IMG/VR virus record: IMGVR_UViG_3300047157_000186
From: a virus
Lineage: Duplodnaviria > Caudoviricetes
Length of the DNA: 64,000 nt
Strand: one strand, 5' to 3'
The position numbers and the translations under genes are program-made. Shown here one piece after another: positions 34,426 to 44,439 of the stretch. Within the stretch, counting starts at the first letter, position 1. Each line of letters opens with the position of its first letter. The notes beneath the pieces are model-generated. The model did not search any database. It was given only the letters and a program-made list of their open reading frames with translations, and was not told the origin of the DNA.

Positions 34426-34860
34426 ATGAAAGATAAAGTAACAAAAGATGAATTAGTAGAAGCTATTAATTCTTCAATAACAATGGCACAAGCAGCAGAC
34501 AAAGTTGATTTAGCATTTACAACATTTAAAAGATACGCTAAAAAACATGGTCTATATAATGCTAATCAAGGTGGCAAAGGAACACGTCGACCACTTAAAA
34601 AACTTCAAGATGTTTTTTCAGGTAAAGAACATTTAGTAACAAACCATCTTAAATATCGTTTGATACTAGAAGGCTTTAAGACCGAACAATGTGAGGAATG
34701 TGGTATAACAGAATGGAATGGTAAAAATATTTCTTTTGAACTTGATCATGTAAATGGAAAAAGAATGGACAACTCATTAGAAAATCTAAAAATTCTATGT
34801 CCAAACTGTCATTCACAAACACCAACATTTAGAGGTAGAAATATTCGTATGGACCAGTAG
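34426..34860 (+). mobile_element. Free-standing HNH homing endonuclease inside the tRNA array
   Basis: CEECG...ELDHVNG...DNSLENLKILCPNCHSQT with an N-terminal HTH-like segment; own late promoter at 34414; stop codon lies within tRNA-Arg. Confidence 0.85.
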
Positions 34861-34927: not shown

Positions 34928-34950
34928 ATATCGACTGTCAGTCAAGCTTT

Positions 34951-35071
34951 AGAGAGGTAGTGAAGCTGTAGTTAAGAAGTAGAGTGTATTAATTGTCGAA
35001 AAAGGGTTTATAGTAGACAGGCGTTACTCATTGCACTTAACCAGAAACCCCGAAAGACCCGAAGCCTCTCT
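34951..35071 (+). ncRNA. Candidate structured RNA between tRNA-Arg and tRNA-Glu
   Basis: AGAGAGG/CCTCTCT closing stem, GTTAAG/CTTAAC, GAGT/ACTC, TTGTC/GACAG; loop GGGTTT complementary to AAACCC. Confidence 0.5.
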
Positions 35072-35076
35072 TATTT

Positions 35077-35148
35077 GCTCCGTTCGTCTAACGGTTAGGA
35101 CATTAGGTTTTCATCCTAAAAATAGGAGTTCGATTCTCCTACGGAGTA
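35077..35148 (+). tRNA. tRNA-Glu(TTC), CCA not encoded
   Basis: GCTCCGT/ACGGAGT acceptor, TTAGG-TTTTCAT-CCTAA arm. Confidence 0.93.
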
Positions 35149-35157
35149 CAACAGATT

Positions 35158-35234
35158 GATCTCTTAGCTCAGTTGGCTAGAGCATCTCACTTTTAATGAG
35201 AGGGTCCAGGGTTCGAGTCCCTGAGGGATCACCA
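35158..35234 (+). tRNA. tRNA-Lys(TTT), CCA encoded
   Basis: GATCTCT/AGGGATC acceptor, TCTCA-CTTTTAA-TGAGA arm. Confidence 0.95.
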
Positions 35235-35237
35235 TAT

Positions 35238-35314
35238 AGTCAAGTATCTCCTCAAGCTTATACCTTGTAGAAAGAGTAATTGGTTACATGAGAGTTCAAA
35301 TCTCTCCTTGACTA
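35238..35314 (+). ncRNA. Non-canonical tRNA-like RNA: perfect acceptor and T-arm, rearranged D/anticodon region
   Basis: AGTCAAG/CTTGACT plus discriminator A, GAGAG-TTCAAAT-CTCTC T-arm, internal CAAG-CTTATAC-CTTG and GTAA-TTGG-TTAC hairpins. Confidence 0.75.
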
Positions 35315-35376
35315 CCTGTGGAAGAAATTTAATTATATTAATGATATATAGTTTTCAACTAAAAAAATAATAAGTA

Positions 35377-35520
35377 ATGAATTCTGAACAATCAAACAAT
35401 GGAAACACTCAGATAAACCATGAGAGAGCAAGTCTCAACAGTAGAGTTTCTAAATTTATGATGCTTGGTAAATCCAAGAAAGTACAATGGGACGGTAGAA
35501 GAAGAAACCGCACCATTTAA
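35377..35520 (+). CDS. Small basic peptide (47 aa) within the tRNA array
   Basis: ATG..TAA ORF behind the late box at 35343. Confidence 0.5.
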   Translation: MNSEQSNNGNTQINHERASLNSRVSKFMMLGKSKKVQWDGRRRNRTI

Positions 35521-38397: not shown

Positions 38398-38641
38398 GTG
38401 GCTGAGAGCTTGATCACTCTCTCGAACATTAAGGGCCTGATGGCAACGCGACCACCCTTAATGACAGTTACATCGGACAGACGCCAGGTGAAAAAGTAAA
38501 TTTATGGCAATGTGGGAACTCAGTTCGCTGAGGTCGGTCAATCATAGGGAATACCGTTTAAAACAAAAATAGAGCCTGGTACCTACGCAACTTAAGAACG
38601 TGGGAATTGGTTAATTGAAGGTTCGACTCCTTCTCTGTTCG
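38398..38641 (+). ncRNA. Early structured RNA ending in an expanded tRNA-like domain (38475-38641)
   Basis: GGACAGA/TCTGTTC acceptor, GAAGG-TTCGACT-CCTTC T-arm, inserted hairpins; leader stems GAGAG/CTCTC and CATTAAGGG/CCCTTAATG. Confidence 0.75.
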
Positions 38642-38684
38642 CAAAATATAAATCCGGAAACTAATTTGAAAATAATTAGCTCCG

Positions 38685-38747
38685 GATTTTTTTATGTCAA
38701 ATATTTGTGGTATATTAGTAGTATACTAATGGAGGTTACTACCTCAC
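38685..38747 (+). promoter_or_regulatory. Early promoter plus GAGGT/ACCTC leader hairpin
   Basis: 38704-38747 matches 46369-46412 at 43 of 44 nt. Confidence 0.8.
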
Positions 38748-43269: not shown

Positions 43270-44439
43270 ATGAGATTAGTAGAATCATTTAAAAATTTTA
43301 AGCTTTTATTAGAAGCCAACAATTCTCTTAAATTAAATGTTCCAAAGGATATTTTAGAATTGCATAAACTATTTAAACAAAATGGCAAGGAATTGTTTAT
43401 TGTGGGTGGTGCAGTGAGAGATGCATTGCTAGGTAAAAAGCCAAAGGATTTTGATTTGGCAACTGATGCGTTTCCTGCAGAAGTTATAGATATTGTTACT
43501 AACGCTGGTTACTCAACTACTGGAGAAGTTGGTCATCAATTTGGAGTAGTTATTGTAAATGTACCTTCGGATCCAGCGGGTGTTGAGATTGCAACATTTA
43601 GAGAAGATGTTGGAAAGGGAAGAAGACCAGATGCAGTGGAATATTCTACAATTGATAAAGATGTATTAAGAAGAGATCTAACAATTAATGCACTATTTTA
43701 TGATATGGGCAGAAAAGAGATTGTAGATTTAGTTGGAGGTTTAGATGATATAAAAAACTCAAAAATTAGAACAGTTGGTGTCGCCGCAGATAGATTTGCA
43801 GAAGATCCACTTAGAAAATTAAGGGCGTTGCGATTTGCAGGTAGAACAGGATCAAAATTAGAAAAAGAAACTGCAGATGCTATTTTAATCGATAATAGTT
43901 TAGAAGGTATTAGTTCTGAAAGAATTAGAGATGAATTTAAGAAATCTATTGTTTCTGCAAAATCAGCAAAGAGTTATTTAAACATGGTATCAGAATTTAA
44001 TTTGTGGTCAATCATGTTTCCATCTTTACAAATTAACGAAAAGTTTATTAACACTAACAATTGGATAGTACAGATTGCAATTCTATTTAGTAATAATGAT
44101 AATGATACAATACAGAAGGAATTAAATAAAGCATCGTTTACAAACGGTGAAATTGATTCAATATTATTCCTAAAGAGTTTAATGACGTTTGATATAAATG
44201 ATGTATTTAATTTACATAAACAATATATGAAGATTCAAATATCTTCTAAATTAGACACCAAAACTATTCTAGAATTTGCAAAAATTAATAAACTCGACAC
44301 TAAAACTTTAAAAGTGTTCTTTAAATATAAACCATCAACCAAAGGTGGAGATGTCATGAAAAAGTTTGGCTTAAAAGGATCTGCAATATCCGATAAGATC
44401 AATCAAATAGAAGCAGAGAAGTTCAGAAGTCTTATTTAG
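43270..44439 (+). CDS. cca: CCA tRNA nucleotidyltransferase / poly(A) polymerase family (class II)
   Basis: VGGAVRDALLG, DFDLAT, EIATFR, RRDLTINAL, RFAEDPLRKLRALRF, ERIRDE; late promoter at 43258. Confidence 0.9.
   Translation: MRLVESFKNFKLLLEANNSLKLNVPKDILELHKLFKQNGKELFIVGGAVRDALLGKKPKDFDLATDAFPAEVIDIVTNAGYSTTGEVGHQFGVVIVNVPSDPAGVEIATFREDVGKGRRPDAVEYSTIDKDVLRRDLTINALFYDMGRKEIVDLVGGLDDIKNSKIRTVGVAADRFAEDPLRKLRALRFAGRTGSKLEKETADAILIDNSLEGISSERIRDEFKKSIVSAKSAKSYLNMVSEFNLWSIMFPSLQINEKFINTNNWIVQIAILFSNNDNDTIQKELNKASFTNGEIDSILFLKSLMTFDINDVFNLHKQYMKIQISSKLDTKTILEFAKINKLDTKTLKVFFKYKPSTKGGDVMKKFGLKGSAISDKINQIEAEKFRSLI

What the first reader, a model, noticed from the sequence alone, without database searches (positions are those of the whole stretch)
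35238..35314. tRNA mimic with rearranged D/anticodon region inside the tRNA array
Seen in sequence: a 77-nt element sits 3 nt after tRNA-Lys. It has a perfect 7-bp acceptor (AGTCAAG/CTTGACT), discriminator A followed by CC, T8A9, and a textbook T-arm (GAGAG-TTCAAAT-CTCTC). There is no canonical D-arm followed by an anticodon arm. Instead a hairpin with a 7-nt anticodon-like loop (CAAG-CTTATAC-CTTG) comes first, and a small hairpin carrying the D-loop-like GG (GTAA-TTGG-TTAC) sits just before the T-arm. Inference: the elbow and acceptor are kept while decoding geometry is lost, as expected for a decoy of tRNA-sensing or tRNA-cleaving defences, a CCA-enzyme substrate, or a processing spacer.
Basis: partly seen in the sequence, partly recalled or inferred. 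Interest (0 to 1): 0.85.

Follow-up and report, generated by a model that had tools for sequence, protein, structure and literature searches.

The report
Phage isoleucine tRNA with rewired core
This 77-base gene is most likely a working isoleucine tRNA for the AUA codon whose D-loop segment lies after the anticodon arm instead of before it; it belongs to a widespread phage family that tRNA finders mostly miss and that I could not find described.

Summary
The element at 35238-35314 (+) is real.

In 67 distinct relatives from viral metagenomes, covariation shows a different core. A D-stem (11-13 with 37-39) encloses the anticodon arm. A single-stranded D-loop-like strand (AAYYGGUYR) follows it. 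Positions 42 and 52 covary like the Levitt pair R15:Y48. The anticodon-to-D-loop stack has the canonical count of layers (5+1+4), so the L-shape is probably kept (inferred).

Among sister phages, the loci carry either this gene or an ordinary tRNA-Ile(UAU), never both. The same scaffold occurs with arginine anticodons. Those copies always have A at the position equivalent to A20, the main determinant for ArgRS; the isoleucine copies always have U.

My best reading (0.7) is a functional AUA-decoding tRNA whose core segments are permuted in a non-circular way. ARAGORN finds 3 of 100 family members and Rfam 1 of 20. Eight literature searches found no description. Earlier notes of this scan report the same class on other genomes.

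The parts
35238..35244 (+). Acceptor stem, 5' strand (positions 1-7, AGUCAAG)
   Evidence: Pairs with 35307-35313. All 7 pairs show double compensatory changes across 67 relatives.
35245..35246 (+). U8 A9, invariant
   Evidence: Invariant in 67 of 67 sequences found with a pattern that fixed only the anticodon arm.
35247..35250 (+). D-stem strand UCUC (positions 10-13)
   Evidence: Pairs with 35274-35277. 12:38 is U-A 37 / C-G 29 / G-C 1 with none unpaired. 11:39 is C-G 65 / A-U 2. 13:37 is always C-G. 10:40 is always U opposite U.
35251..35251 (+). C14, invariant single base between the D-stem and the anticodon stem (spatial equivalent of position 26; inferred)
   Evidence: Invariant.
35252..35268 (+). 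Anticodon arm (positions 15-31): stem UCAAG/CUUGU with U15 opposite U31, loop CUUAUAC, anticodon UAU at 35259-35261 (reads AUA, Ile)
   Evidence: Rfam aligns it to the tRNA anticodon arm. Stem pairs 16-19:27-30 all show double changes in arginine-type and other relatives.
35269..35273 (+). Linker N-GAAA (positions 32-36) that returns the chain from the anticodon stem to the D-stem
   Evidence: Position 32 varies (A/U/C). G33 A34 A35 A36 are invariant.
35274..35277 (+). D-stem strand GAGU (positions 37-40)
   Evidence: Partner of 35247-35250. These are the top mutual-information pairs outside the acceptor stem.
35278..35286 (+). D-loop-like strand AAUUGGUUA (positions 41-49), equivalent to A14 R15 Y16 Y17 G18 G19 U20 Y20a R21
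   Evidence: Identical to the D loop of the ordinary tRNA-Ile(UAU) of L037. A41, G45, G46 and U47 are invariant. Changes stay within R or Y classes. Position 47 is U in all Ile-type and A in all Arg-type copies.
35287..35289 (+). C50 A51 U52; U52 is the Levitt-type partner of A42 (35279)
   Evidence: 42:52 is A-U 55 / G-C 10 / G-U 1 / U-G 1. C50 and A51 are invariant.
35290..35306 (+). T arm GAGAG-UUCAAAU-CUCUC (positions 53-69)
   Evidence: 4 of 5 pairs and 5 of 5 pairs show double changes. L034 alone has two compensatory swaps.
35307..35314 (+). Acceptor stem 3' strand CUUGACU and discriminator A (position 77)
   Evidence: The discriminator is A in 67 of 67 Ile-type sequences.
35315..35316 (+). 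Encoded CC; the final A of CCA is not encoded
   Evidence: In 100 family loci the base after the discriminator is C in 99, and the full CCA is encoded in 7.
35158..35234 (+). Upstream neighbour tRNA-Lys(UUU) in the same array. Array members on the + strand: Leu 34283, Arg 34851, Glu 35077, Lys 35158, this gene, Thr 35527, Gly 35607, Asp 35914
   Evidence: ARAGORN and Rfam.
43270..44439 (+). Phage gene of the CCA-adding enzyme / poly(A) polymerase family; a candidate for completing the CCA end (inferred link)
   Evidence: Pfam PF01743 (E 5e-32) and PF12627. NCBIfam CCA tRNA nucleotidyltransferase and PcnB models match at E 1e-52 to 1e-53, below the equivalog cutoffs.

Best explanation
This is a phage-encoded elongator tRNA-Ile with anticodon UAU that reads AUA codons. 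Its core is rewired relative to a canonical tRNA.

In a canonical tRNA the order is: U8-A9, D-stem 5' strand, D loop, D-stem 3' strand, base 26, anticodon arm, variable loop, T arm. Here the order is: U8-A9, one D-stem strand (10-13), C14, anticodon arm (15-31), linker NGAAA (32-36), the other D-stem strand (37-40), D-loop-like strand (41-49), C50-A51-Y52, T arm.

The D-stem therefore closes around the anticodon arm and stacks on it. The D-loop strand leaves the far end of that stack. It can reach the T loop through G45 and G46, equivalents of G18 and G19, and it makes a 15:48-type pair (42:52) just before the T stem. The stack counts 5 anticodon-stem layers, 1 spacer and 4 D-stem layers, as in any tRNA, so the L-shape and the anticodon-to-CCA distance are probably kept.

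Shown here: the secondary structure and the 42:52 pair (by covariation); the family's spread; its alternation with an ordinary tRNA-Ile(UAU); and the link between D-loop identity bases and anticodon class.

Inferred:
- co-transcription with the array
- 5' cutting by RNase P
- 3' trimming and completion of CCA by the phage's own or the host's nucleotidyltransferase
- charging by the host IleRS
- decoding of AUA, which makes up 31% of Ile codons in this 31-35% GC phage
For: 1. Structure. On 67 distinct sequences found with an anticodon-arm pattern only, 12:38 is U-A 37 / C-G 29 / G-C 1 with no unpaired case. 11:39 is C-G 65 / A-U 2, and 42:52 is A-U 55 / G-C 10 / G-U 1 / U-G 1. The acceptor stem has 7 of 7 and the T stem 4 of 5 pairs with double changes. 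None of 500 shuffles reaches the observed scores, and slid controls collapse. Lineages with the same acceptor stem differ at 12:38 (L082 against L084; L076 against L114; L080 against L133) and at 42:52 (window against L034; L144 against L150), so the switches are repeated events.

2. An unbiased mutual-information ranking over 120 sequences puts only the model's pairs at the top.

3. Anticodon-stem pairs covary in the arginine-type copies and in UAU copies with other stems.

4. Among 69 loci related through the sigma factor, 13 carry this gene and 10 carry an ordinary cloverleaf tRNA-Ile(UAU). None carries both, and the two states interleave along the identity ranking. The ordinary version in L037 has the same anticodon arm and the same D-loop sequence.

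5. The scaffold also occurs with the arginine anticodons UCU, CCU, UCG and ACG. Position 47 is A in 52 of 52 Arg-type and U in 67 of 67 Ile-type copies. The discriminator is A in all Ile-type copies and G or A in 46 of 52 Arg-type copies. These match the published identity sets: Arg uses A20, C35 and A/G73; Ile uses the discriminator, the anticodon and D20/D21 (PMC9976931).

6. All nine ordinary tRNAs of the window except Asp have U34 and serve A-ending codons, which dominate phage usage. AUA is 2% of all codons.

7. In 100 family loci the commonest neighbour is tRNA-Arg(UCU), and the base after the discriminator is C in 99.
Against: - There is no direct evidence for a mature RNA, aminoacylation or decoding. 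Metatranscriptome contigs cover the gene in 3 of 4 runs, but they may come from DNA or from a precursor.
- The three-dimensional fold is inferred. No RNA 3D tool was available.
- U15 lies opposite U31 and U10 opposite U40, so two positions in the stack are non-standard.
- An unmodified U34 could also read AUG.
- AUA usage does not differ between loci with this gene, with the ordinary gene, or with neither.
- Invariance of the core motifs in the Arg-type set is partly imposed by the search pattern.
- The alternation with the ordinary gene rests on partial contigs.
Confidence: 0.7

Rival explanations
1. It is a non-decoding tRNA mimic. It would act as a decoy that soaks up host tRNA-cleaving or tRNA-sensing defence proteins, or as a substrate of the CCA-adding enzyme, without delivering isoleucine to the ribosome.
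For: The architecture is unusual and essentially phage-specific. Phage tRNAs are known to counter tRNA-targeting defences (PMC11555353, seen). A decoy for an anticodon nuclease would also need a conserved anticodon loop.
Against: A decoy does not need synthetase identity bases that switch with the anticodon class (A47 with NCU/NCG, U47 with NAU). It does not need an invariant discriminator A, nor the canonical 10-layer stack. It would not be expected to alternate with an ordinary tRNA-Ile(UAU) in sister phages. No defence or anti-defence gene lies next to it.
Confidence: 0.13
2. It is a processing signal: a tRNA-shaped punctuation mark that only guides RNase P and 3' nucleases to cut the polycistronic transcript, for example to release the downstream small ORF.
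For: It sits 3 nt after tRNA-Lys and 62 nt upstream of a conserved 47-codon ORF. The acceptor and T arms alone are enough for RNase P (established knowledge).
Against: Punctuation needs neither an invariant anticodon loop, nor a covarying D-stem, nor a Levitt-type pair, nor identity bases. The flanks differ entirely between lineages, and the small ORF is absent from most of them.
Confidence: 0.05
3. It is a decaying tRNA-Ile pseudogene or an assembly artefact.
For: ARAGORN misses it and the Rfam score is marginal.
Against: The 77 nt are 88-100% conserved while neighbouring proteins are about 70% identical and the flanks are unrelated. Compensatory changes occur in every helix. The stretch is present in marine metagenomes from 17 studies.
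Confidence: 0.02

Closest known systems
Ordinary phage tRNA-Ile(UAU), e.g. L037:11636-11710 and those of L013, L018, L020, L023 and L038-L041; more broadly the TilS-independent tRNA-Ile(UAU) of Mycoplasma mobile (PMC3575796, listed)
   Same: Same anticodon loop CUUAUAY. L037 has the same anticodon stem UCAAG and the same D-loop sequence AAUUGGUUA. They share discriminator A, 7/5 acceptor/T arms, the same place in the phage tRNA array, and presumably the same job of reading AUA.
   Different: The order of the core segments differs. In the window's gene the D-stem encloses the anticodon arm, the D loop is an open strand that runs into the T stem, and no variable loop joins the anticodon arm to the T arm.
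Rewired phage tRNA-Arg (UCU, CCU, UCG, ACG) and tRNA-Ile (GAU, CAU) on the same scaffold, e.g. L206:13042-13118, Kehishuvirus 'tikkala' OQ198717.1 (L309:1495-1571) and Pseudomonas phage PA11 NC_007808.1 (L338, about 593-673)
   Same: They share the core: UA, UCYC, C, anticodon arm, NGAAA, GRGU, AAYUGG.., CAY, T arm. PA11 has the same segment order with different linkers and a GCCC/GGGU stem. They are also left unannotated in the deposited records.
   Different: The anticodon differs, position 47 is A in Arg-type copies, and the discriminator differs. PA11 has other linker lengths (3 nt, and 7 nt before the T arm) and an encoded CCA.
D-arm-lacking mitochondrial tRNAs, e.g. [quoted passage not shown]
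   Same: No D arm lies between the acceptor stem and the anticodon arm, and standard models align the gene as D-armless.
   Different: Those tRNAs truly lack the D stem and the D-loop/T-loop contact, and they are flexible. This gene keeps a covarying D-stem, a GG-bearing D-loop strand and a Levitt-type pair, placed elsewhere in the chain.
Circularly permuted tRNA genes of Cyanidioschyzon merolae and other algae (Soma, PMC3978253, cited within PMC10085705)
   Same: The gene order of tRNA segments differs from the canonical order.
   Different: In those genes the 3' half precedes the 5' half, and circularisation plus cleavage restores a standard tRNA. Here the acceptor strands are in normal order, only internal segments are transposed, and no processing route could restore the canonical order. 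The mature RNA itself would be permuted.
Natural non-circular permutations in ribozymes (hammerhead, twister; PMC10085705)
   Same: The same concept: the 5'-to-3' order of structural elements changes while their likely 3D positions are kept.
   Different: A different RNA class. That paper reports no tRNA case and states that no such permutations were known in natural RNAs before it.
Type II (long variable arm) tRNAs
   Same: Rfam accommodates positions 33-50 as a variable-region insertion.
   Different: There is no conserved variable-arm hairpin. The segment supplies one D-stem strand and the D loop.

Membership tests
tRNA (Rfam RF00005, canonical cloverleaf) | 7-bp acceptor stem with an unpaired discriminator | tested here: met
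   All 7 pairs covary.
tRNA (Rfam RF00005, canonical cloverleaf) | 5-bp T stem with a 7-nt UUCRANY loop | tested here: met
   GAGAG-UUCAAAU-CUCUC. Covariation.
tRNA (Rfam RF00005, canonical cloverleaf) | Anticodon arm with a 7-nt loop, U33 and purine 37 | tested here: met
   Loop C-U-UAU-A-C on 4 Watson-Crick pairs plus U opposite U. The stem covaries in relatives.
tRNA (Rfam RF00005, canonical cloverleaf) | D arm (stem and loop) between position 9 and the anticodon arm; variable loop between the anticodon arm and the T arm | tested here: not met
   Only 6 nt separate A9 from the anticodon stem. The D-stem partner and the D-loop strand lie 3' of the anticodon arm.
tRNA (Rfam RF00005, canonical cloverleaf) | Score above the curated threshold; called by tRNA finders | tested here: inconclusive
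   Rfam scores 31.3 bits against a cutoff of 29. ARAGORN makes no call. Across the family, Rfam finds 1 of 20 and ARAGORN 3 of 100.
tRNA (functional definition) | Aminoacylated and used by the ribosome | not testable with these tools
   Only indirect evidence: identity bases and alternation with the ordinary gene.
   U12-A38, C11-G39 and C13-G37 in the window. Covariation.
   AAUUGGUUA-CAU in the window. 42:52 counts. The class model R2 scores the window's gene at 84.4 bits, against 24 bits or less for the ordinary tRNAs.
D-armless mitochondrial-type tRNA | D arm replaced by a short connector, with no D-loop/T-loop interaction elements | tested here: not met
   A D-stem and a GG-bearing strand are present and conserved.
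tRNA-like decoys or mimics (tmRNA tRNA-like domain, viral 3' tRNA-like structures, mascRNA) | Acceptor/T-arm mimicry without a selected anticodon and identity set | tested here: not met
   The anticodon loop is invariant. Position 47 and the discriminator track the anticodon class. Only weak, sub-threshold Rfam matches to other families, none spanning the element.
Circularly permuted tRNA genes | The 3' half is encoded upstream of the 5' half and restored by circularisation | tested here: not met
   The acceptor 5' and 3' strands are in normal order at the two ends of the gene.

The most novel reading that the evidence does not exclude
The rewiring is adaptive rather than neutral. It would be a natural, non-circularly permuted tRNA scaffold that still works with RNase P, the CCA enzyme, IleRS or ArgRS, EF-Tu and the ribosome. 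At the same time it would be a poor substrate for host proteins that read the canonical D-arm connectivity, such as tRNA-cleaving defence nucleases or toxins, or modification enzymes acting on Ile and Arg tRNAs. Phages would thereby gain a protected supply of the AUA and AGR decoders.
Probability: 0.25. Interest if true: 0.9.

Novelty: new variant of a known kind. Interest (0 to 1): 0.8.

Why it matters
If these RNAs are charged and used by ribosomes, the order of tRNA core segments along the chain is not fixed. The same L-shape could then be built from a different strand order. To my knowledge that would be the first natural tRNA whose mature form is permuted, and a further case of non-circular permutation in a natural RNA.

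- Annotation: phage tRNA complements, and codon-supply or host-range inferences drawn from them, are under-counted for AUA and AGR, because ARAGORN and the Rfam model mostly miss the class.
- Mechanism: the class offers a natural test of which tRNA features RNase P, CCA-adding enzymes, IleRS and ArgRS, modification enzymes, EF-Tu and the ribosome really need.
- Engineering: it suggests a new scaffold for orthogonal tRNAs.
- Experiments: cultured carriers exist (a crAss-like Bacteroides phage and the Pseudomonas phage PA11 group), so the question can be tested directly.

Tried and rejected
- the first viral scan used a pattern with one N too many and found nothing. It was corrected.
Covariation rejects that fold.
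- RNAalifold on the 67-sequence alignment builds a central structure from invariant columns only, which is uninformative.
- I considered a D-like arm at 37-52 (G37:Y52, G39:C50, U40:A49) after seeing L034. I dropped it when 11:39 and 12:38 covariation appeared.
- megablast and blastn against cultured phages with the window's own sequence found no near relative and only two distant hits.
- no whole genome is held for this window.
- AUA usage compared between loci with the rewired gene, the ordinary gene or neither showed no difference.
- metatranscriptome contigs cover the gene but cannot show ends, strand or charging.
- eight literature searches gave no description of this architecture. The 2020 review of non-canonical tRNAs (PMC7609411) does not list it.
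- I did not test rearranging the segments in silico back into canonical order for scoring. ARAGORN would probably accept either possible rearrangement, so the test could not discriminate.
- I did not run complex prediction or any protein fold jobs, because no protein partner is claimed.

Full report
**1. What is in the sequence**

- The acceptor stem is AGUCAAG/CUUGACU, followed by U8 A9.
- A hairpin CAAG-CUUAUAC-CUUG has a 7-nt anticodon-type loop.
- The T arm is GAGAG-UUCAAAU-CUCUC.
- The discriminator is A, and it is followed by CC.

The gene starts 3 nt after tRNA-Lys(UUU), inside a + strand array of Leu, Arg, Glu, Lys, this gene, Thr, Gly and Asp. ARAGORN does not call it. The Rfam tRNA model reaches 31.3 bits against a cutoff of 29. 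It does so only by deleting the D arm and treating 18 nt after the anticodon arm as an insertion. It reads the loop as C32-U33-UAU-A37-C38, that is, anticodon UAU for the Ile codon AUA.

**2. Setting**

- The window has 29-36% GC.
- It encodes a T4-type major capsid protein (PF07068), a prohead protease, a sigma factor, a DNA ligase and an HNH endonuclease.
- Its best cultured relatives are below 50% identical in the capsid protein.
- No whole genome is held for it.
- The stretch occurs in seawater and marine metagenomes from 17 studies. It is therefore a marine T4-like phage.
- In its long ORFs, AUA is 31% of Ile codons and 2% of all codons. A-ending codons dominate, and eight of the nine ordinary tRNAs have U34. 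A UAU anticodon fits that set.

**3. Conservation**

- A pattern scan of viral contigs found near-identical copies in three contigs. It also found one ordinary tRNA-Ile(GAU) with the very same acceptor stem and T loop.
- Using the adjacent sigma factor as a handle, I fetched 69 related loci.
- A covariance model of the element found it in 13 of them. It differs by 0-2 changes even where the sigma factor is only about 70% identical, and the flanks are unrelated.
- The most divergent copy (L034) has two compensatory swaps in the T stem.

**4. Alternation with the ordinary gene**

ARAGORN on all loci shows an ordinary cloverleaf tRNA-Ile(UAU) in 10 loci and the odd gene in 13, never both. The two states interleave along the ranking by sigma-factor identity. 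The ordinary version in L037 has the same anticodon arm (UCAAG-CUUAUAU-CUUGA) and the same D loop (AAUUGGUUA) as the window's gene.

**5. The real fold**

About 100 are the odd type and only about 10 are ordinary tRNAs. They give 67 distinct gap-free sequences with quite different acceptor stems. A 68th, L152, has a 1-nt deletion and was left out of the alignment. Pair counts:

| Element | Counts |
|---|---|
| Acceptor stem | 7 of 7 pairs with double changes |
| T stem | 4 of 5 pairs with double changes |
| 12:38 | U-A 37, C-G 29, G-C 1, none unpaired |
| 11:39 | C-G 65, A-U 2 |
| 13:37 | C-G always |
| 10:40 | always U opposite U |
| 42:52 | A-U 55, G-C 10, G-U 1, U-G 1 |

- None of 500 shuffles reaches the observed values, and sliding the partners destroys the signal.
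- Lineages that share an acceptor stem differ at 12:38 or 42:52, so these are repeated events.
Its 41:48 pair is unpaired in 32 of 67 sequences and it has no double change.
- A mutual-information ranking over 120 sequences, made without any structure, lists only the model's pairs at the top.

So a D-stem (UCUC with GAGU) encloses the anticodon arm. Positions 41-49 form an open strand with the D-loop consensus A14 R15 Y16 Y17 G18 G19 N20 Y20a R21. The 42:52 pair behaves like the Levitt pair R15:Y48 and sits directly before the T stem, as position 48 does.

**6. Geometry (inference)**

Along the arm the order is: anticodon loop, 5 stem layers (the last is U opposite U), C14 opposite a 5-nt bulge, 4 D-stem layers, then the D-loop strand. 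That is the same count as the canonical tRNA's 5 + position 26 + 4.

Relative to a canonical tRNA, three backbone connections differ:
- 9 joins the strand that runs toward the anticodon.
- The anticodon stem's 3' end returns through NGAAA to the other D-stem strand.
- The end of the D loop runs through C-A-Y into the T stem.

In known tRNA structures the residues joined in each case are neighbours in the core: the 8-14-21 triple, residues 45/46 in the D-stem groove, and the 15:48 pair. I rely on established structural knowledge for that point. A canonical L-shape with a re-threaded chain is therefore plausible, but it is not shown here.

**7. A class, not a singleton**

It gave 52 distinct well-paired genes, all with arginine anticodons (UCU 29, CCU 18, ACG 4, UCG 1). 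Their anticodon stems covary fully.
- A scan of one genome per 185,579 prokaryote species gave only 28 hits. About 20 are real, and all are in metagenome-assembled genomes, many of them Bacteroidota. Their anticodons are UAU (with varied stems), GAU, CAU, UCU and CCU.
- Cultured carriers exist and are unannotated. Kehishuvirus 'tikkala' has a GAU copy. The Pseudomonas phage PA11 group has a UCU variant with other linker lengths.
- The class model scores the window's gene at 84.4 bits and finds no second member in the window.

**8. Evidence for charging**

- Position 47, the base after GG and equivalent to position 20, is A in 52 of 52 Arg-type and U in 67 of 67 Ile-type genes. It is perfectly linked to the anticodon's middle base.
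- A20 is the main determinant for bacterial ArgRS, together with C35 and A/G73. E. coli IleRS uses the discriminator, the anticodon and D-loop residues including D20 and D21 (PMC9976931).
- The discriminator is A in all Ile-type genes and G or A in 46 of 52 Arg-type genes.
- A mimic that is never charged has no obvious need for this pattern.

**9. Ends and expression**

- Only CC is encoded here. Across 100 loci the base after the discriminator is C in 99 and the full CCA is encoded in 7. The 3' end therefore needs completion.
- The phage encodes a nucleotidyltransferase of the CCA-adding/PcnB family at 43270-44439.
- Contigs from 3 of 4 marine metatranscriptome runs span tRNA-Lys and this gene. 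That could reflect precursor RNA or contaminating DNA.

**10. Comparison with what is known**

- It works like a tRNA-Ile(UAU). It fails the canonical cloverleaf definition on arm order.
- It is not a D-armless mitochondrial-type tRNA, because it keeps the D-stem and the D-loop elements.
- It is not a circularly permuted tRNA gene, because its ends are normal and no processing could restore the canonical order.
- The nearest concept is the non-circular permutation reported for hammerhead and twister ribozymes. That paper contains no tRNA case (PMC10085705).
- Eight full-text searches and a review of non-canonical tRNAs gave no description of it.
- Earlier AI notes of this scan describe the same class on other genomes. 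I had reached the same reading before seeing them, and I tested it independently here.

**11. Verdict**

- The decoy interpretation is not supported.
- The gene is most likely a functional AUA-reading tRNA-Ile with a permuted core (0.7).
- Why phages keep this form, and why it appears only for Ile and Arg within the motif-limited searches made here, remains unexplained.

Noticed in passing
window 38572-38641 (+), with 38651-38696: A second tRNA-like element missed by ARAGORN and by Rfam at its gathering threshold. It has a T arm GAAGG-UUCGACU-CCUUC preceded by AAUUGGUUAA and a weak acceptor-like closing helix. A strong terminator-like hairpin with a U run follows. The class model scores it at 23.6 bits. 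The same sequence is found only in L003 among the fetched loci.
   Followed up: partly
window 35377-35520 (+): A 47-codon ORF for a basic peptide lies between the rewired tRNA and tRNA-Thr. It is conserved in L006 and L003, with an in-frame 3-nt indel that fits a coding region. It has no Pfam match.
   Followed up: partly
window 34426-34860 (+): An HNH endonuclease gene (phrog_10822) is inserted between tRNA-Leu and tRNA-Arg. Its last 10 nt overlap the start of tRNA-Arg (34851). The close relative L001/L005 lacks it; there Leu and Arg are 6 nt apart. In Pseudomonas phage PA11 an HNH gene likewise ends inside the rewired tRNA-Arg.
   Followed up: partly
window 34928-35076 (+): A 149-nt spacer lies between tRNA-Arg and tRNA-Glu. 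It is absent from L001 (11-nt spacer), and one metatranscriptome contig skips it (34934 to 35077). It is therefore an insertion that is polymorphic in the population.
   Followed up: no
L003:7060-7136 (-) against window 35158-35234: The tRNA upstream of the rewired gene is Lys(UUU) in the window. In L003 the same scaffold reads as Asn(GUU), with the anticodon changed and a compensatory change in the anticodon stem. This looks like an anticodon switch.
   Followed up: no
window 43270-44439 (+): The phage encodes a class II nucleotidyltransferase (CCA-adding enzyme / poly(A) polymerase family). It scores below the equivalog cutoffs, so its exact activity is open.
   Followed up: partly
L002:5449-5857; L109:2473-2881; L140:8156-8519: Phage-encoded tmRNA genes lie close to Ile tRNAs. 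In L002 the tmRNA follows an ordinary tRNA-Ile(GAU) that has the window gene's acceptor stem. In L109 it lies 57 nt after a rewired tRNA-Ile(UAU).
   Followed up: no
L333 (MAG, Flavobacteriaceae bacterium SAT1509), 2803-2879: A contig binned with a Flavobacteriaceae genome carries the window's rewired gene with the identical acceptor stem. Many other MAG hits are Bacteroidota. This is a hint about the host, or a case of phage contigs mis-binned with their host.
   Followed up: no
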